Positions 41,227 to 46,698 of a stretch of DNA of 61,801 bases are shown here, one piece after another. Position 1 is the first letter of the stretch. Every line of letters starts with the position of its first letter. The DNA is from a virus (Duplodnaviria > Caudoviricetes). Made by a program: the position numbers and the translations under genes. The DNA is taken from positions 1 to 61,801 of IMG/VR virus record IMGVR_UViG_3300033076_001439; one strand, written 5' to 3'. The notes beneath the pieces are model-generated. The model had not been told where the DNA came from, ran no database searches, and saw only the letters and a list, made by a program, of their open reading frames with translations.

Positions 41227-43092
41227 TTATTTCGCCTCGCCCCAGCTCGGCCCGACTTCCACGTCACACCGGTTGGGCACTTCCATCTTCACGCAGTTCG
41301 CCATGATCCGGGATGCTTCGACAGCGTCATCTTTGCTCAGCACCGACAGCGCCACTTCATCGTGCACTTGCAAGATTGGATCGAAGCCTGCCTTTTTCAG
41401 GGCCACCATGGCTGCTTTGGTCTGGTCTGCGGCAGACCCCTGGATCAGACGGTTGAGCCCCTTGTATGTGCCCGCACGCTTGATCCGTGAGCCGTATTCA
41501 ATCACTGCCTGCTCACGCGGCAGCGCTTTGTTCACGCCCCACTCCATGGGCTCCCACAGCGGGAAGCGGCACTTGCGGCCCAGCAGCGTGCGGATCGCGC
41601 CGCCAGCCGCCGGGTGGTCGATGCGCTTCATCACCGCGTTGACAGTGCCCTTGAGGAACGGGACATTCTGGTGAAAGCGGGTGATCAGCTCATCGGCTTC
41701 GGTGAGCGCCAAGTCCAACTGCGCAGCGAGCTTGTTTTTGCCCATGCCGTACATCAGGCCCAGGCCAATCGTTTTGGCCGCCTTGCGTTTGATCCCAGCC
41801 ATGTCCGCAACCATCTGGTGGAAGTCGGTGTTGGGGTCGTTGTTGTAGGCGTCCACCATGGTCTCGGCCCCGGGCAGGCCCAGGAGACTGGCGTAGTGCA
41901 CCAGCAGGCGCGGTTCTTGGGACGAGAAGTCATTCGATGCCCACATGTGCCCCTGCTCAGGCAGGAACAGGCCACGCACCATCGGTCCGATGATCTCATG
42001 GCGGGCAGGCACTTGCTGCAAGTTGGGGTTGGCCATGGACAGACGGCCCGTCACCGTGCCGCCGTCATCCGAGCGCATCTGGTTGACGTGCGGGTGAATG
42101 CGGCCAGTCTTGGCGCTGAAGTCCATGTAAGGCTGAAGAAAGGTGCTGTGCGTCTTGTTGGTCTCACGGGCCTCGATGATCATCTTGGCCAGCGGGTGGG
42201 GATGGTTGTCCAGGAACTGCTTGGTGAAGCTAGGCAGGCCGTTGTCGGTCTTGCTGTACTGGATGCCCAGGCGATCGAAGGCGTGGGCAATGGATTGCGC
42301 AGCCCAGATGTCGATCTTGACGCCAGCTTGCTCCTTCATCTCCTTGAGGAGCTGGTGCTCGCGCACCTTCATGCGGTCGATCATCAGGCCACACTTCTCA
42401 CGATCAAAGCGGATGCCCTTGCGGGTCATCTCCAGCAGCACGGGGAACACATCGGTTTCGATGTTAAAGATGGACTCGACTTCGTCCTGGCGCATCTTGA
42501 TCTTGAAGTGCTGCCAGAGCTTGAGCGTCAGCGCCGCGTCTTGCTCCGCGTACTCACCGACGTACATGGCCGGGAGCTTCCAGAGCTCCTTTTTAGGATG
42601 GACACCGAAATCGGCTGCGGCCTGCTTGAGGCCCTGCTCACTCTTGATTTCTTGGAGGTAGTCGAACCCAAGTGCATTGAGGGAATAACTGAACCTGTTT
42701 TCGTCAAGTAAGGGGGCAGCCAGCATGGTGTCGAAAATGCGGCCATTGACTGTGAATCCACTTGCACCCAGCCACCCGGCGTCATAGGCTGCGTTGTGCA
42801 TGATTTTGTCGGCAGGGGTGGCGAGGACGTCCTTGATCCATTTCTCCACCAGTCTCTTGTCCAGGTTACCGCCACCGGCGTGAGCGACAGGGTAATAACC
42901 AGACCAGCCTTCCACGGCAATGGCATATCCGACAATGAAACCGTCACCGCGAGGCCACCCAGGACCGAAAGACTCCAAGTTGGGATCACATGTTTCGAGG
43001 TCAATTGCTATCTCCTTGGCTGTGGATAAGTTGGGGAAAGTTTCTGGGGCGACCCACTCTGTGGGGGTCGGAAAAAGCGGCATGGTTCTCAT
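41227..43092 (-). CDS. polA: DNA polymerase family A with 3'-5' exonuclease
   Basis: IDLET, HNAAYD, TGRLS..PNLQQ, DFSSQEPR, R..AKT, IQGSAAD, QVHDE. Confidence 0.95.
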   Translation of the reverse strand: MRTMPLFPTPTEWVAPETFPNLSTAKEIAIDLETCDPNLESFGPGWPRGDGFIVGYAIAVEGWSGYYPVAHAGGGNLDKRLVEKWIKDVLATPADKIMHNAAYDAGWLGASGFTVNGRIFDTMLAAPLLDENRFSYSLNALGFDYLQEIKSEQGLKQAAADFGVHPKKELWKLPAMYVGEYAEQDAALTLKLWQHFKIKMRQDEVESIFNIETDVFPVLLEMTRKGIRFDREKCGLMIDRMKVREHQLLKEMKEQAGVKIDIWAAQSIAHAFDRLGIQYSKTDNGLPSFTKQFLDNHPHPLAKMIIEARETNKTHSTFLQPYMDFSAKTGRIHPHVNQMRSDDGGTVTGRLSMANPNLQQVPARHEIIGPMVRGLFLPEQGHMWASNDFSSQEPRLLVHYASLLGLPGAETMVDAYNNDPNTDFHQMVADMAGIKRKAAKTIGLGLMYGMGKNKLAAQLDLALTEADELITRFHQNVPFLKGTVNAVMKRIDHPAAGGAIRTLLGRKCRFPLWEPMEWGVNKALPREQAVIEYGSRIKRAGTYKGLNRLIQGSAADQTKAAMVALKKAGFDPILQVHDEVALSVLSKDDAVEASRIMANCVKMEVPNRCDVEVGPSWGEAK

Positions 43093-44669
43093 AGCATGAA
43101 TCCTTTATCTCGAGACTTGGGCAGCACTAAGTGCAGTGATTGCTTCGCCCGGGTAACTCCCACATAGAAAAGGCGATGCACATCGTCCCCGTTCTTCTGG
43201 AAATCCTTGGCGAATTTTGTGGACAGGTCCATGAGCAGCAAGACGTTGTCCGCCTCCCCGCCCTTGGCTCCGTGGATTGTGGATAACTTGATCCGGCCAC
43301 CGTCCGTGAGCTTGGTGCCACGGCGCAGAACAGAGATCAGGTAATCGCGTTTGTCGTGGGCGATCTTGCCCAGCGCTTCGTGCCAGATGGGCGCAGACAG
43401 CAGGCCAAAGTTGTCCTGGAGCTGCTGCAATGTGTGGGGCTCGTTGCGGTCACCCTTGAAGCTCCGATGTCCGCGGGCCACGAAATCCGAATCGAGGTAC
43501 CGGTAGACGTTGGCCACATCCTCACCAAAGACCGCGTAGCCCTTGCGCAGGCGCTCCCAACTGATCACGGCCTTCAGGATGGTCGGGCCCACGCTCGGAA
43601 CACCGCTGCGATCAAACAGCAGGCCCTTGGCCTTGAGCCATTCACCCACGGGGTTGAGCAGGTAGTTGGTGCTGGCCAGAATGAGCCACTGGCCTTCGTC
43701 CACGGGCACGTCTTCAAACCGGTAATAGGTGGACACTTGGCCCTCAAACTCGCGAGGCTTCCATTCTTTCGCCTGTCGGGTGCGGATACGGCTGACGATC
43801 TGGTTGGCCAAGAAGTGCACGGTGCTCGGCACGCGGTACGACTGCTGCAGAACCTTGATGGTGCCATTGAACGACAAGAAGCTCTTGACGTCTGCCCCGG
43901 CCCAGGTGAATACTGCTTGATCGTCGTCCCCGGCGAGGAATACCCGTTTCGCTTTGGCAGCCAGTGCTTCCACCAGTTGCCACTGCAATCGGGATAAATC
44001 CTGCGCTTCGTCCACGATTAGAACCTCCAGTGAAGGTAATCGGTCCGCTTCGCTGACCACCATTTCCAGCAGGTCGGTGAAGTCCAGCAGGTCCTTGCTG
44101 CGTTTGTAGTGGCGGTAGGTCCGCTCCACAAACTCGAAGTGGTACCACTCGATGTCCAGGCCTGAGTCGTTGTAGTGCTGGCGCAGGTCCACGCCACGGA
44201 TGCGGGCCAGGTTGATCTCATTGAGGATGGGGTTGTCCGGCTTGGACAGGTCGGTGTCATCGTCAGCGTTGATCTTGATTTCGATGCCAGCTTGCGCCGC
44301 GAACTCGCGGTAGTGCTCCGCTTGCATGATCAGGTCAGGCTTGATGGCCAGCACATGGTAGGCCAGGCTGTGCAGCGTGCGGAAGAACGGGAAGTCCGTT
44401 TTGGGGTGCAGGTGCGGGAATTTGATGAGCGCACGGTCCCGCGCTTCGTTGGCCGCCTTTCTGGTGAAAGAAAAGTAGCCAATCCTTCCAGAGGAAACCC
44501 CTGACTCCAGCTCCCGGTCCACGACGTTGAGCAAATAGGTTGTTTTTCCGGAGCCTAGTTACGGAGGGCCGAAGACTTTTTCAATCTTCGGCCCATACTC
44601 CTCATGTTGGTGTTGGTAATTTGCCATGCCAGCGGATGTGGTTGTGTAGCGTTCAATGTTCGGTGTCAT
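43089..44669 (-). CDS. UvrD/SF1 helicase whose Walker A is interrupted by in-frame TAA CTA (candidate ribosomal bypass)
   Basis: FGPP*LGSGKTT, SFTRKAA, TLHS, VDEAQD, GDDDQ, QSYR, STIHGAKGGE, YVGVTRA; the ORF track starts after the P-loop. Confidence 0.85.
44563..44601 (-). promoter_or_regulatory. Strong mRNA hairpin immediately 5' of the in-frame stop in the helicase
   Basis: GGGCCGAAGA-TTGAAAAAG-TCTTCGGCCC with perfect 10-bp arms (44566-44594), extendable by GGA/TCC. Confidence 0.7.
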
Positions 44670-44913
44670 GGTCCGTCACTCTATACAGGTCGTTGGTCCA
44701 GACAAGGATAGGTGTGTCCAATCCGATGTATGCGCCCTCGATGTTGTATTCGATGAACTCACGTGCGCCCTCAAAGTCCATGCCGTCACGCGACATCAAG
44801 ATGTTGCGGATGATCTCGGCGTTGTAGACCAGTACTTCCACCTGGCCGCCAGACTTTGTCCAAACCATGGCTGGGCCAATGATGGCCTCGTCGTATCCGT
44901 CCCACTTTTTCAT
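44653..44913 (-). CDS. Conserved small phage protein
   Basis: DGYDEAIIG...AREFIEYNIEGAYIG..TP. Confidence 0.8.
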   Translation of the reverse strand: MKKWDGYDEAIIGPAMVWTKSGGQVEVLVYNAEIIRNILMSRDGMDFEGAREFIEYNIEGAYIGLDTPILVWTNDLYRVTDHDTEH

Positions 44914-45104
44914 TGCTTAGGCTCCTGGATGTTCTGGGAAGCCAGCCACTGCAGTTCCTCTCCGAACTCATAGAAGTTTTCAAGTGGCACGTTGTCGCAG
45001 GTCAACTTGCCGTTGACTAACACCATTTTGACCACGCCTGTGCCGCAGACAAAAGCGTCTTGAATGGCCAGATTAATGGCATGCATATCAGTGTCGATGT
45101 TCAA
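44910..45104 (-). CDS. Hypothetical protein
   Basis: Coupled between primase and next ORF. Confidence 0.6.
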   Translation of the reverse strand: MNIDTDMHAINLAIQDAFVCGTGVVKMVLVNGKLTCDNVPLENFYEFGEELQWLASQNIQEPKQ

Positions 45105-46633
45105 AATGGACTCCCTTCGGTGCGTTGGGTATGGGTATCAAATGGGGCTTCCTGTTTGCCAAAGCGCGGGATGCGCCAGCAGCGCACAGCGCGGCCCTTG
45201 AGGAACAGGCTGATGGGCTCGCCACCGATGTCGCGCAGGCGCTGGGCCATCTTGGGCGCGGTCAGGGCTTTGAAGTTGTTGCGCAGCAGGTGCGCGTCAA
45301 GGTCCTTGATTCGGAAGTAGGTCTTCGCCTCCTCTTCATCTGTCCATGGGCGGCCCATGAGCATCTCTTCGCGGGCCAGGGCCTGCTGCATGTGCGTCGT
45401 GAACTCTTCGAGCAGGTCCATGAAGCGACCGATCACGCTGGTGTCTTCGCTGGCCACGGTGATCTGCTCTGTCTCCACCATCTCTTTCAAGAGGGCGTTA
45501 AGCAGGTTCTCCCAGTCCTGCTTGCGCAAGGTGGGCGGCACGGTGTTGATCTTCTCGAGGCAGGCCTTCTGAAAGGCTGCCTGGTTGTAGAGCATCTCAG
45601 TCTCGAGCTCTACACGCTTGCCGTTGACATCCAGGAACCACAGTGGTGGATCGCTGGCGTACTTGGACAAACTGGCTATCTGAGCCGCATCAGGGGCGTG
45701 AGCCCCGATACCGAACTTGCGAGAGCGGCAGAGTCCAGAGTTACAAAAACTGTTGAGAGGCGCGTCCTTGCACTTGTACTGATAATCTTTTTTGCCAGCC
45801 TGTTTGATGATGAGCTGGACCTCGTTGTTGGGCAGCGGGGGAGCAACGTACTTGAGGTTGTACTCGACCATCTTGTCTTCCCACGCACCCGGGTGGGCAC
45901 GTTTAAGATAGACCCCAATGTTGAATAGCCCATTATTGCGGGTGCCTTCCGGGAACCCTTGGGCACAAAGAGCTTGTAGGCAAGGCGGGCCATCTTTGAT
46001 GGGACTCTCCGCTTGTTTAGGCGGCTCAGGGAATTCGAGTGGCGTGTCTTGGACATTGGCTGCATGGAGCTCATAAAACTCCTCAAGGGTCGCCGCAGAA
46101 CCGTCGGCATTGAATGCATACCTTGTACCCGAGTCCCCACCGAAGTACGGCAGGTTGAGGAAGTTGCCGGTGTCTCCTCGGTCCACGAGGATTTCGGCCT
46201 GCTTCGGGAATATCTCTCGACCTGCCTCGCCAAGCAGCGCGGCAGCATTCTTAAGATAGGTCTGGTAATCGCGTGCAGGCGCGGGCTCTTTTGTGAATAA
46301 AAAGACATGTGCGCCTCCTGATTTGCTGCGGCACACGACGAGAGGCAGCTTCAATTGTTGAATTTTTTCGACCAAGCCTTTGTGGTCGAGCGGGTACTGA
46401 TCGATGTCGATACAGCCCCAGATGCAGGTGTTGTCTGCACGGATTGGGATGATGCCCAGAGACGGCTCTACACCTTCAAGGTGTTTGACCCAGAGGTCGT
46501 CTGTCGGCGGCTTGCGAACGACCGTAGCCTGTCCTGCTTGCTTTCCATCGCCACGCTCCGATTTGATTTTGTAGGTGCCATATGCGATGTCGAGTCCGCT
46601 GAATATGGCTTTTAATCTGGTGATGTCGGTCAT
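45101..46633 (-). CDS. AEP-family primase with PriCT-like domain
   Basis: WGCIDID, RSKSGGAH, GNFLNLPY, PPCL...EGTRNN. Confidence 0.85.
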   Translation of the reverse strand: MTDITRLKAIFSGLDIAYGTYKIKSERGDGKQAGQATVVRKPPTDDLWVKHLEGVEPSLGIIPIRADNTCIWGCIDIDQYPLDHKGLVEKIQQLKLPLVVCRSKSGGAHVFLFTKEPAPARDYQTYLKNAAALLGEAGREIFPKQAEILVDRGDTGNFLNLPYFGGDSGTRYAFNADGSAATLEEFYELHAANVQDTPLEFPEPPKQAESPIKDGPPCLQALCAQGFPEGTRNNGLFNIGVYLKRAHPGAWEDKMVEYNLKYVAPPLPNNEVQLIIKQAGKKDYQYKCKDAPLNSFCNSGLCRSRKFGIGAHAPDAAQIASLSKYASDPPLWFLDVNGKRVELETEMLYNQAAFQKACLEKINTVPPTLRKQDWENLLNALLKEMVETEQITVASEDTSVIGRFMDLLEEFTTHMQQALAREEMLMGRPWTDEEEAKTYFRIKDLDAHLLRNNFKALTAPKMAQRLRDIGGEPISLFLKGRAVRCWRIPRFGKQEAPFDTHTQRTEGSPF

Positions 46634-46652
46634 ACAACTCTCTATGGAAGGC

Positions 46653-46698
46653 GGGGCCGCTGTCCGGTCCACCGGGAACCCCCAGTGGCAGCGGCCCC
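46653..46698 (-). other. GC-rich stacked hairpin between SSB and primase
   Basis: GGGGCCGCTG/CAGCGGCCCC outer stem with CCACTGGG/CCCGGTGG inner stem; no U-tract. Confidence 0.6.

What the first reader, a model, noticed from the sequence alone, without database searches (positions are those of the whole stretch)
44540..44669. Candidate programmed ribosomal stop-hop inside the helicase Walker A motif
Seen: the minus strand reads ...TTC GGC CCT CCG TAA CTA GGC TCC GGA AAA ACA ACC, i.e. FGPP*L-GSGKTT. Removing exactly TAACTA (44556-44561) restores a canonical P-loop GPPGSGKTT. The frame upstream is open back to ATG 44627/44669, and every downstream SF1 motif is intact with no other sign of decay. 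A perfect 10-bp hairpin (GGGCCGAAGA/TCTTCGGCCC, 44566-44594) ends 4 nt before the stop. Established: T4 gene 60 bypassing uses a take-off codon, a stop codon and stem-loops at and 5' of the take-off site, and 6-nt stop-hops occur on synthetic CUU-UAG-CUA constructs. Inference: peptidyl-tRNA-Pro leaves CCG, slides over UAA, re-pairs at near-cognate CUA and resumes at GGC. This would gate helicase dose and also give a 22-36 aa truncated peptide. Plain readthrough would give GPPxLGSGKT with wrong P-loop spacing. I know of no described natural case in a phage helicase.
Basis: partly seen in the sequence, partly recalled or inferred. Interest (0 to 1): 0.92.

Follow-up and report, generated by a model that had tools for sequence, protein, structure and literature searches.

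The report
Natural ribosome stop-hop in phage helicase
A six-base, stop-containing insert inside the ATP-binding loop of this phage's helicase gene belongs to a widespread conserved family linked to a homing-endonuclease cassette, and the sequence evidence indicates that ribosomes hop over it, which would be the first natural in-frame 'stop-hop'.

Summary
On the minus strand the SF1 helicase reads ...VFGPP-TAA-CTA-GSGKTT (hexamer 44556-44561), preceded by a 12-bp hairpin (z = -4.65). It is not an artefact or a one-off. Pattern scans found 116 carrier entries (55 clusters at 80% identity) in viral, metagenome and MAG contigs. 54 of 55 clusters have a stop (TAA, TAG or TGA) and 53 of 55 have C-Y-N next. 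The take-off Pro codon is never CCC (0/55 against 32/95 in uninterrupted relatives). Third bases of take-off and landing codons co-vary. The 5' hairpin pairs the GGNCC of the Gly-Pro codons in 82/82 carriers against 19/150 non-carriers. The helicase downstream is under purifying selection (dN/dS 0.04-0.31). Inserts of 1-5 nt do not occur. Inserts of 7 nt (TAA-T-CCT) and 8 nt (TGA-TG-CCG) put ORF2 out of frame but keep a Pro codon against the resume GGN, which excludes readthrough. A 135-aa HNH endonuclease gene lies just upstream in 31/72 carrier clusters and 0/136 non-carriers. The window keeps only its last 48 nt. Best reading: a programmed 6-nt hop by peptidyl-tRNA-Pro, analogous to T4 mobA/gene 60. 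My literature searches found no report of it. There is no experimental proof.

The parts
44559..44669 (-). ORF1: 36 codons plus TAA (MTPNIE-RYTTTSAGMANYQHQHEEYGPKIE-KVFGPP-stop). The first 6 codons are the original helicase start, the middle is cassette leader, and the last 6 codons are the helicase beta1 strand and the first half of Walker A.
44602..44649 (-). Remnant of the HNH homing-endonuclease gene: its last 15 codons plus TGA (LHNHIRWHGKLPTPT*), in another frame than ORF1. The rest was removed by a deletion of roughly 0.5 kb relative to L017.
44598..44603 (-). Shine-Dalgarno-like GAGGAG just 5' of the hairpin. Its GGA can pair with the UCC of the Pro-Pro codons in the MFE. Equivalent AAGGAG/GGAGG motifs occur in most carriers.
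44566..44594 (-). Stimulatory 5' hairpin: 5' arm GGGCCGAAGATT (44594-44583), loop GAAAA, 3' arm AGTCTTCGGCCC (44577-44566, the Val-Phe-Gly-Pro codons).
44562..44564 (-). Proposed take-off codon CCG (second Pro of GPP), in the P site when the stop is in the A site.
44559..44561 (-). In-frame stop TAA, first half of the inserted hexamer.
44556..44558 (-). Proposed landing codon CTA, second half of the hexamer. It is near-cognate for tRNA-Pro (C:G, U.G, and A:U if the anticodon is UGG).
43089..44555 (-). ORF2: resume codon GGC, then SGKTT... to the TGA. This is the rest of the SF1 UvrD-like helicase (488 codons). The first canonical internal start is the TTG at 44534, which lies after the P-loop.

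Best explanation
The hexamer TAA-CTA is the coding gap of a programmed translational bypass, a 'stop-hop'. Ribosomes translate ORF1 to ...Val-Phe-Gly-Pro-Pro. With peptidyl-tRNA-Pro on CCG in the P site and UAA-C in the A site, termination is slow. This step is inferred from recalled knowledge that Pro-Pro-stop and a C after the stop are poor termination contexts. The 12-bp hairpin, whose 3' arm is the Val-Phe-Gly-Pro codons, re-forms behind the ribosome and favours forward movement of the mRNA. This step is inferred by analogy with gene 60. The tRNA un-pairs, the mRNA slides 6 nt, the anticodon re-pairs with CUA, and decoding resumes at GGC. The product carries the canonical Walker A GPPGSGKTT. 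The insert, the new leader and the hairpin arrived together with a free-standing HNH homing-endonuclease gene placed just after the original helicase start. The window later lost most of that gene by deletion. The likely reason for the insert is that it splits the endonuclease's target in the conserved P-loop DNA. That would protect carriers from cleavage, as in the T4 mobA/gene 60 cassette. This last point is inferred and was not tested.
For: Ten lines of evidence support this. (1) The insert is a family, not an accident. A scan with the second hexamer codon left free gave 42/42 viral contigs from 40 datasets with a stop followed by CYN. With the whole hexamer free, 38/38 viral hits were the same carriers and 64/66 metagenome hits had a stop. 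4/5 MAG hits were carriers. (2) After clustering at 80% identity (55 carrier and 95 non-carrier clusters), the stop codons were TAG 22, TAA 16, TGA 16 and TGG 1. The landing codon was CYN in 53/55 and never ended in C. The take-off codon CCC occurred in 0/55 carriers against 32/95 non-carriers (Fisher p = 5e-8). Take-off and landing third bases were identical in 36/55 against 22.2 expected (permutation p < 1e-4). (3) The length spectrum at TTC-GGN-CCN-CCN^GGN in viral contigs was: 3 nt, 0; 1-5 nt, 0 real and 1 chance match; 6 nt, 24 contigs; 7 nt, 3 contigs reading TAA-T-CCT; 8 nt, 1 contig reading TGA-TG-CCG. In the 7-nt and 8-nt forms ORF2 (463-489 aa) is in the +1 or +2 frame and a CCN codon abuts the resume GGN. 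(4) For the hairpin, the 60-nt MFE averaged -26.9 (n=82) against -10.6 kcal/mol (n=150), Mann-Whitney p = 1e-34. GGNCC was fully paired in 82/82 carriers against 19/150 non-carriers. On an unfitted MAFFT alignment 86.5% of cells paired, 4 pairs changed on both sides, and the covariation score was 0.227 against 0.171 in shuffles (0/500 reached it) and at most 0.12 when slid. The sense strand was more stable than the antisense in 64/82 (p = 4e-9). (5) ORF2 is functional. 76 of 80 complete downstream ORFs are at least 400 aa. dN/dS is 0.04-0.31 inside all-carrier clades and 0.14 for the window against L017. Codons between the hexamer and the first possible start codon give sum dN / sum dS = 0.13. 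(6) Carrier state clusters on the helicase tree, with 18 changes against 51.6 for shuffled labels. All-carrier clades reach 0.74 and 1.61 substitutions per site. (7) An HNH ORF (Pfam HNH_3, E = 1e-14) ends 10-85 nt upstream on the same strand in 31/72 carrier clusters and 0/136 non-carrier clusters. (8) The window carries the endonuclease remnant. (9) TAA is a normal stop here, and no suppressor tRNA gene is present. (10) A preprint reports that pairing of mRNA exiting the ribosome drives forward bypassing in gene 60 (10.1101/2024.12.09.627546, passages read).
Against: There is no protein, RNA or ribosome data, and no RNA run holds the stretch. In the window the landing codon CUA is only near-cognate to the take-off codon CCG. 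Three exceptions exist. L158 has the sense pair TGG-CCG with an intact 470-aa ORF, so two extra residues might be tolerated. L139 lands on TTG and L186 on GCG. One lineage (L126/L144/L175) has a second in-frame TGA, and L168 is damaged. L318 has a 13-nt insert that no hop onto a Pro-like codon explains. My scans required GPP and G[ST]GKTT on either side, so conservation of those residues is partly built in. The codon statistics are not phylogenetically corrected. In some carriers the hairpin also covers the ribosome-binding site and start codon, so it could serve initiation control instead of, or besides, the hop. The efficiency of the hop is unknown, and I recall that synthetic stop-hops ran at about 1%.
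Confidence: 0.78

Rival explanations
1. Stop-codon readthrough: a near-cognate tRNA decodes the stop and the helicase carries two extra residues (GPP-X-L/P-GSGKTT).
For: In the 6-nt class both ORFs are in the same frame. A C follows the stop in nearly all carriers, which I recall is the leakiest context. One sense variant, L158 (TGG CCG), has an intact 470-aa ORF and the hairpin.
Against: The 7-nt and 8-nt variants put ORF2 in another frame yet keep CCN next to GGN. 3-nt inserts, which would be less disruptive under readthrough, never occur (0 hits). Only 1 of 55 clusters has a sense codon. Readthrough does not predict co-variation of the third bases of the codons on either side of the stop, or avoidance of CCC. 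The conserved structure is 5' of the site, not 3'. UAA, which I recall is the tightest stop, is as frequent as UGA (16 and 16 of 55).
Confidence: 0.07
2. The 6-8 nt are removed before translation, at the RNA level (an unknown editing or splicing step) or from part of the DNA population.
For: Nothing direct. No RNA data exist for this stretch, so it cannot be excluded.
Against: No Rfam family matches. The size is far below any intron class I know. DNA contigs from many datasets keep the insert. The rules observed (a stop, a Pro-like codon next to GGN, no C at the third position, third-base matching) are codon-anticodon rules and have no meaning for splicing.
Confidence: 0.06
3. The helicase is inactivated, or only a P-loop-less ORF2 is made from an internal start. 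On this view the hexamer is a tolerated scar of endonuclease invasion and the hairpin serves initiation control or the endonuclease.
For: The endonuclease association. In some carriers the hairpin covers the ribosome-binding site and ATG. One lineage has a second in-frame TGA and one contig is damaged.
Against: dN/dS is 0.04-0.31 in all-carrier clades with dS up to 1.4 or more. There is purifying selection on codons upstream of any possible internal start. In some carriers the first start codon is 36-76 codons into ORF2. The stop and the CYN codon are conserved while all surrounding synonymous sites vary. A scar under no selection would drift to sense codons.
Confidence: 0.04
4. Assembly or sequencing artefact.
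For: The window is a metagenome-assembled contig.
Against: 116 carrier entries come from viral, metagenome and MAG collections. Contigs of other runs span the site without an indel. Indels of 1-5 nt at the same site are absent.
Confidence: 0.01

Closest known systems
Phage T4 gene 60 50-nt translational bypass with the mobA HNH homing-endonuclease cassette
   Same: A stop-containing insert in an essential DNA-replication enzyme gene arrives with an HNH homing-endonuclease gene and a new N-terminal leader. A stop lies directly 3' of the take-off codon. Peptidyl-tRNA is proposed to re-pair downstream. mRNA structure forms from and 5' of the take-off region. (Passages of 10.1101/2022.08.31.505936, 10.1101/2024.12.09.627546 and PMC5009743 read.)
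   Different: The gap is 6-8 nt, not 50. The tRNA is Pro, not Gly. The landing codon is often only near-cognate (CUN). There is no long nascent-peptide signal, since ORF1 can be as short as 10 codons. The endonuclease is about 135 aa (HNH_3), whereas MobA is 269-279 aa. The host gene is an SF1 helicase and is not split into two genes. The site lies inside the Walker A motif. No sequence homology to the gene 60 cassette was seen.
Synthetic 'stop-hops' in E. coli (Weiss, Dunn, Atkins and Gesteland 1987; cited in PMC5009743 and the 2022 preprint; the original was not read)
   Same: The P-site tRNA leaves its codon, passes one in-frame stop and re-pairs on a similar codon immediately after it, so that 9 nt encode one amino acid. 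This is exactly the geometry here.
   Different: Those were artificial, unstimulated and low-level, as I recall. Here the site is natural, conserved, under selection and accompanied by a covarying hairpin. The review PMC5009743 states that for natural in-frame stop hopping 'no occurences are known' (passage read).
Streptomyces phage Hau3 terminase 10-nt bypass at UUA (PMC10732093, passages read)
   Same: A short coding gap in a phage gene, a slow-to-decode A-site codon, and a proposed 5' stem-loop with a flanking Shine-Dalgarno-like element.
   Different: There the trigger is a rare sense codon and the proposed role is regulatory sensing of the host tRNA. No homing endonuclease is involved, and the gene and tRNA differ.
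Mitochondrial bypass elements ('byps') of Magnusiomyces capitatus (as summarised in PMC5009743)
   Same: Short inserts in conserved genes are rendered harmless by translational bypass, and take-off and landing codons are not always perfectly matched.
   Different: The setting is a eukaryotic organelle with an unused codon in the A site. Bypass there is said to be largely context-independent, and no hairpin or endonuclease is associated.

Membership tests
Programmed translational bypassing (gene 60 type, by mechanism) | Two coding segments separated by a non-coding gap together encode one conserved protein | tested here: met
   GPP | 6-8 nt | G[ST]GKTT restores the Walker A motif found uninterrupted in relatives.
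Programmed translational bypassing (gene 60 type, by mechanism) | A stop codon immediately 3' of the take-off codon | tested here: met
   TAA in the window. 54/55 carrier clusters have TAA, TAG or TGA.
Programmed translational bypassing (gene 60 type, by mechanism) | Take-off and landing codons readable by the same peptidyl-tRNA, with the landing codon adjacent to the resume codon | tested here: inconclusive
   At family level, landing is CCN in 21/55 clusters and CUN in 32/55. It is always adjacent to GGN, including in the 7-nt and 8-nt variants, and the third bases co-vary. In the window the pair is CCG/CUA, which is near-cognate only.
Programmed translational bypassing (gene 60 type, by mechanism) | [quoted passage not shown] | tested here: met
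   Hairpin z = -4.65. It is carrier-specific and covarying. Its function as a stimulator is inferred.
Programmed translational bypassing (gene 60 type, by mechanism) | Nascent-peptide signal in the exit tunnel | tested here: not met
   ORF1 length ranges from 10 codons (MTIRKVFGPP in L098, L104, L117) to over 60. Nothing is conserved beyond the hairpin-encoded residues and the final Pro-Pro.
Programmed translational bypassing (gene 60 type, by mechanism) | A single polypeptide lacking the gap-encoded residues has been demonstrated | not testable with these tools
   No proteomic or RNA data. No RNA holder was listed.
Homologue of the T4 mobA/gene 60 cassette (by descent) | A 50-nt gap, a MobA-type endonuclease of about 270 aa, and a topoisomerase II large-subunit host gene | tested here: not met
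   The gap is 6-8 nt, the endonuclease is an HNH_3 protein of 135-136 aa, and the host gene is a UvrD-like helicase. MobA features are from 10.1101/2022.08.31.505936.
Free-standing homing-endonuclease mobile cassette | The endonuclease gene sits next to a conserved target, with presence/absence polymorphism among close relatives | tested here: met
   The HNH ORF ends 10-85 nt upstream in 31/72 carrier clusters and 0/136 non-carrier clusters. L017 has it, the window has a 48-nt remnant, and L004/L007 have neither. Carriers and non-carriers coexist in run X2.
Free-standing homing-endonuclease mobile cassette | The endonuclease cleaves the insert-free allele, and the insert protects the carrier | not testable with these tools
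   Inferred by analogy only.
Programmed stop-codon readthrough | The downstream ORF is in the same frame as the upstream one in all members | tested here: not met
   The 7-nt (L319, L322, L323) and 8-nt (L320) variants have ORF2 in the +1 and +2 frames.
SF1 UvrD/Rep-like helicase | UvrD N- and C-terminal domains with Walker A (motif I) | tested here: met
   PF00580 at 8.8e-24, PF13361 at 9.1e-11 and PF13245 at 3.6e-11 on ORF2. Walker A is complete only if the hexamer is skipped.
HNH_3 endonuclease (PF13392) | Profile match above the gathering score | tested here: met
   L017 ORF scores 54.7 bits and L038 ORF 51.6 bits against a cut-off of 24.8. The window holds only the C-terminal 15 codons, identified by alignment to L017.

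The most novel reading that the evidence does not exclude
This is the first natural, selected family of in-frame 'stop-hops'. Peptidyl-tRNA-Pro skips a stop plus 0-2 nt and re-pairs on a CCN or CUN codon inside the Walker A motif of phage SF1 helicases, driven by a refolding 5' hairpin. The device travels with, and outlives, a small HNH homing endonuclease, whose target it probably destroys. It would be a second, independent invention of the 'endonuclease plus bypass' cassette known only from T4 gene 60. It is far simpler (about 45 nt of signal, with ORF1 as short as 10 codons) and is spread over many uncultured phage lineages from different habitats.
Probability: 0.72. Interest if true: 0.93.

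Novelty: new variant of a known kind. Interest (0 to 1): 0.9.

Why it matters
Efficient programmed bypassing has rested for decades on one bacterial-virus example, T4 gene 60 and its close homologues. The 2016 review PMC5009743 notes that natural in-frame stop hopping had no known case. A minimal natural hop site would give a tractable system for studying take-off, sliding and landing without a nascent-peptide signal. It has dozens of natural variants in stop identity, landing codon, gap length (6, 7 or 8 nt) and hairpin sequence. It also suggests that homing endonucleases repeatedly recruit recoding to make target-destroying inserts harmless. In practice, gene callers truncate these helicases or mark them as broken, so such sites are probably under-reported in phage genomes.

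Tried and rejected
- **Near-identical phage records:** megablast of the gene found none.
- **tRNA and Rfam scans:** nothing found.
- **RNA evidence:** no RNA holder was listed, so expression could not be examined. Only contigs, not raw reads, could be laid.
- **Cultured carriers:** tblastn with the HNH protein found only distant partial relatives, at best 33.6% identity over 90% of the query. A 66-nt blastn across the hairpin and hexamer found only 18-19-nt P-loop matches in PhoH genes. No cultured carrier was identified, but the phage collection could not be searched by pattern, so absence is not shown.
- **Group I intron or intein reading of the cassette:** rejected. No choice of splice sites removes the hexamer while keeping KVFGPP, and the HNH ORF is out of frame with the helicase.
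- **Code reassignment:** rejected. All three stops occur at the site, and TAA ends the polymerase gene.
- **Reinitiation after the stop:** rejected. CCN and CUN are not start codons, and the first canonical starts lie after the P-loop.
- **Structure or complex prediction:** not attempted, as it would not discriminate between the models.
- **Supplementary files of the 2022 gene 60 preprint:** They could list other bypass cases. I read only passages of that paper.
Full report
**What is in the window.** The window is a complete 61.8-kb viral contig. On the minus strand it has primase (45101-46672), two small ORFs, an SF1 UvrD-like helicase and DNA polymerase I (41227-43092). The helicase frame from ATG 44669 to TGA 43089 holds one internal stop. 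It reads GTC TTC GGC CCT CCG TAA CTA GGC TCC GGA AAA ACA ACC, i.e. VFGPP*LGSGKTT, with the hexamer at 44556-44561. A 12-bp hairpin spans 44594-44566. Its 3' arm is the Val-Phe-Gly-Pro codons and it ends 4 nt before the stop. Its MFE is -25.5 kcal/mol and z = -4.65, with 1 of 200 shuffles as good. The closest non-carrier relative has only a weak native stem there (z = -1.21). TAA ends the polymerase gene, so it is a normal stop here. There is no tRNA gene and no Rfam match.

**Not an artefact.** Contigs of three sequencing runs cross the site with no indel. X1 is identical but may be the source. X3 record 19 has 0 differences. X2 record 9 has 4 substitutions and no gap. In X2, more abundant contigs join 44533/44550 to 44652 through letters that I read as an uninterrupted KVFGPPGSGKTT. 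Carriers and non-carriers therefore coexist in that sample.

**Relatives.** Named phages DSL-LC04 (61% aa identity) and 023Pt_psg01 have uninterrupted GPPGSGKTT and GPPGTGKTT. One search kept 80 related viral loci out of 191 relatives. Four of them (L017, L038, L039, L043) read FGPP*LGSGKTT, 74 have an uninterrupted site, and the rest lack the region. This set was found through ORF2 alone, so it is unbiased for the P-loop.

**The cassette.** In L017 and L038 the original helicase start (MTPNIEKV...) is orphaned. It is followed by a 135-136-aa ORF matching Pfam HNH_3 (E = 7.6e-15 and 7.2e-14). Then come a new leader, the hairpin, KVFGPP, the hexamer and GSGKTT. L017 has TAG CTA where the window has TAA CTA. 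The window aligns to L017 on both sides of a deletion of roughly 0.5 kb. That deletion removed all but the last 15 codons plus stop of the HNH gene (44649-44602, LHNHIRWHGKLPTPT*).

**A large family.** A scan of 2.9 million viral contigs for GGN CCN CCN TRR NNN GGN WSN GGN AAR ACN AC gave 42 loci from 40 datasets. All 42 have TAA, TAG or TGA (none TGG), and all have C-[T/C]-N as the next codon, although that codon was left free. With the whole hexamer free (preceded by TTY), 38 of 38 hits were the same carriers. A 3-nt insert gave 0 hits. The same free-hexamer pattern in the metagenome collection gave 66 loci. Of these, 64 have a stop, one is an unrelated protein (L181), and one (L158) has TGG CCG. 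A scan of species genomes gave 4 carriers in MAG contigs and one chance match, L129.

**Pooled statistics.** I pooled 116 carrier entries, after dropping L181 and L129 as non-helicase, with 178 helicase-like non-carriers, after dropping 16 non-helicase pattern hits. I then clustered them by identity of the first 150 nt. At 80% identity this left 55 carrier and 95 non-carrier clusters.
- Stop codons: TAG 22, TAA 16, TGA 16, TGG 1.
- Landing codons: CTG 14, CTA 13, CCA 10, CCG 9, CTT 5, CCT 2, TTG 1, GCG 1. None ends in C.
- Take-off codons: CCG 34, CCA 14, CCT 7, CCC 0. Non-carriers use CCC in 32 of 95 (Fisher p = 5e-8).
- Third bases of take-off and landing are identical in 36 of 55 against 22.2 expected (permutation p < 1e-4).

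These are the properties expected if one tRNA-Pro must read both codons. G35 and G36 of the anticodon pair with C or U, and a U34 or C34 wobble base reads A, G or U. Neither readthrough nor splicing predicts them. The tests are not corrected for phylogeny.

**Length spectrum.** With a TTC start, viral contigs gave the following insert lengths: 1-5 nt, 0 real cases (one chance match, L324); 6 nt, 24 contigs; 7-30 nt, 7 hits. Of those 7 hits, L317 and L321 are chance matches in another frame. L319, L322 and L323 come from three datasets and carry CCG | TAA T CCT | GGT, with ORF2 in the +1 frame (489 aa in two of them, 174 aa in L319). L320 carries CCA | TGA TG CCG | GGC, with ORF2 in the +2 frame (463 aa) and a -35.6 kcal/mol hairpin. 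In both variants a true Pro codon abuts the resume GGN regardless of frame. A simple +1 slip in the 7-nt form would need tRNA-Pro to pair with CGU. Readthrough cannot join these ORFs, but a hop can. L318 (13 nt, TGA followed by 10 nt) is not explained.

**The hairpin.** Over the 60 nt ending at the take-off codon, the MFE averages -26.9 kcal/mol in carriers (n = 82 clusters at 97%) against -10.6 in non-carriers (n = 150), Mann-Whitney p = 1e-34. The GGNCC of the Gly-Pro codons is fully paired as the 3' arm in 82/82 carriers against 19/150 non-carriers. Carriers with different beta1-strand residues (KLYGPP, IVLGPP, IIIGPP, RLFGPP) have matching 5' arms. On an unfitted MAFFT alignment of 37 distinct segments, 86.5% of cells pair and 4 pairs show double-sided changes. 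The covariation score is 0.227, against 0.171 for shuffles (0 of 500 reach it) and at most 0.12 for slid registers. The sense strand folds better than the antisense in 64 of 82 (p = 4e-9), and 95 of 1409 pairs are G.U, which points to an mRNA structure. A Shine-Dalgarno-like AAGGAG/GAGGAG precedes the 5' arm. In one group the ATG lies in the 5' arm and ORF1 is only MTIRKVFGPP, so no long nascent-peptide signal is possible. The hairpin may also influence initiation.

**The helicase is maintained.** Of 80 carrier entries with a complete downstream ORF, 76 are at least 400 aa. The rest of the 116 run off their contigs. The four short ones are L126/L144/L175, one lineage with a second TGA at a conserved Trp, and L168, which has a local frameshift pair. 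I built a tree of 199 complete helicases, 59 of them carriers. Incomplete ORFs, ORFs under 400 aa and non-carriers over 700 aa were left out. It needs 18 changes of carrier state against 51.6 for shuffled labels. All-carrier clades reach 15 tips (0.74 substitutions per site) and 7 tips (1.61) with varied hexamers. Non-carrier sampling around those clades is thin. Within all-carrier clades dN/dS is 0.04-0.31. For example, L098 and L117 are both without the endonuclease, share the hexamer TGA CCA, and give dS = 1.40 and dN/dS = 0.048. The window against L017 gives 0.14. To avoid the circularity of my patterns I also tested codons after GTGKTT and before any ATG/GTG/TTG in the 15-tip clade. They give sum dN / sum dS = 0.13 (76 usable pairs of 105). 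In some carriers the first possible start lies 36-76 codons into ORF2. Translation therefore enters ORF2 from upstream of the hexamer.

**Endonuclease link.** A homologous HNH ORF on the same strand ends 10-85 nt before the P-loop in 31 of 72 carrier clusters that have at least 600 nt of upstream sequence. It is present in 0 of 136 non-carrier clusters. In the first 43 carriers the count was 19 of 43. The endonuclease never occurs without the insert. The insert often persists without the endonuclease, as in the window. I infer, by analogy with T4 mobA/gene 60, that the insert splits the enzyme's target and protects carriers, and that this protection may explain why it persists. This was not tested.

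**Mechanism proposed.** The shown facts are the anatomy, the conservation rules, the selection on ORF2 and the out-of-frame variants. The inferred steps are as follows:
1. The ribosome pauses with peptidyl-tRNA-Pro on the second Pro codon and a stop followed by C in the A site.
2. The hairpin, whose 3' arm has just left the ribosome, re-forms.
3. The anticodon dissociates, the mRNA slides forward by 6 (or 7 or 8) nt, and the anticodon re-pairs on CCN or CUN.
4. Decoding resumes at GGN, giving GPPG[ST]GKTT.

A short ORF1 peptide would be the by-product of termination. The efficiency is unknown.

**Comparison with the literature.** I made four full-text searches and read passages of six papers. 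They turned up no report of bypassing in a helicase or P-loop, and none of an HNH cassette with a 6-nt insert. The review PMC5009743 says that in-frame stop hopping was shown with synthetic constructs but 'no occurences are known' in nature. The closest system is T4 gene 60 with mobA (10.1101/2022.08.31.505936), whose cassette likewise adds a leader and a bypass element. The present family shares the logic, but not the sequence, gap length, tRNA, nascent-peptide requirement or host gene. Only passages were read, supplements were closed, and subscription journals are not covered, so prior description cannot be fully excluded.

**Verdict.** It is extended by the homing-endonuclease context and by natural variants that exclude readthrough. 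What remains open is direct proof of the product, the efficiency of the hop, and the endonuclease's target.

Noticed in passing
L158 (metagenome locus), P-loop site: This is the only sense variant of the insert: CCG TGG CCG (GPPWPGTGKTT), with an intact 470-aa ORF and the hairpin. Its distant relative L085 has TGA CCG. It could be a recent mutation, an error, or a sign that two extra residues are tolerated.
   Followed up: partly
L126, L144, L175 (one lineage, three contigs), 73 codons after the resume codon: There is a second in-frame TGA where relatives have a conserved Trp (..VDEWNRD..), and the frame continues to a full-length helicase. It may be decay, TGA read as Trp, or another recoding site.
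   Followed up: partly
L168: There is a local pair of frameshifts near AVDRYGP. A probable intein appears to be inserted in the GDDDQ helicase motif (sequence continuing ..DDDQASLPGSMVLTEGG..). This suggests the gene attracts several kinds of mobile elements.
   Followed up: no
L318, P-loop site: A 13-nt insert (TGA followed by 10 nt that partly duplicate the GGA AAG ACA of the P-loop) puts ORF2 (536 aa) in the +1 frame, with no Pro-like codon next to the resume GGN. The simple hop model does not explain it.
   Followed up: partly
L139 and L186, landing codon: Two carriers break the C-Y-N rule: TGA TTG and TAG GCG. L186 is a short contig fragment.
   Followed up: no
L004:2935-2994 (closest non-carrier) against window 44566-44594: The native start region of uninterrupted relatives (..CCG AAC ATT GAA AAG GTG TTC GG..) already forms a weak 9-bp stem (z = -1.21). 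The cassette leader resembles this sequence with an extended, stronger 5' arm, so the hairpin may have evolved from the native 5' end of the gene.
   Followed up: partly
window 44200-44950, run X2: In one sequencing run, contigs with the cassette leader and hexamer (depth about 4.6) coexist with more abundant contigs of uninterrupted relatives (depths 58.6 and 17.7). This is the situation in which a homing endonuclease, and immunity to it, would matter.
   Followed up: no
window 44910-45104 (-) and 44653-44913 (-): Two small ORFs (64 aa and 86 aa) without a Pfam match lie between the primase and the helicase. DSL-LC04 has only one (85 aa, annotated there as a sigma-G factor). L017 has a 107-aa ORF in place of the 64-aa one.
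   Followed up: no
L319 against L322 and L323: Of the three contigs with the 7-nt insert, L319 has ORF2 ending after 174 aa while its near-identical twins run 489 aa. This is probably a mutation or error in that contig.
   Followed up: no
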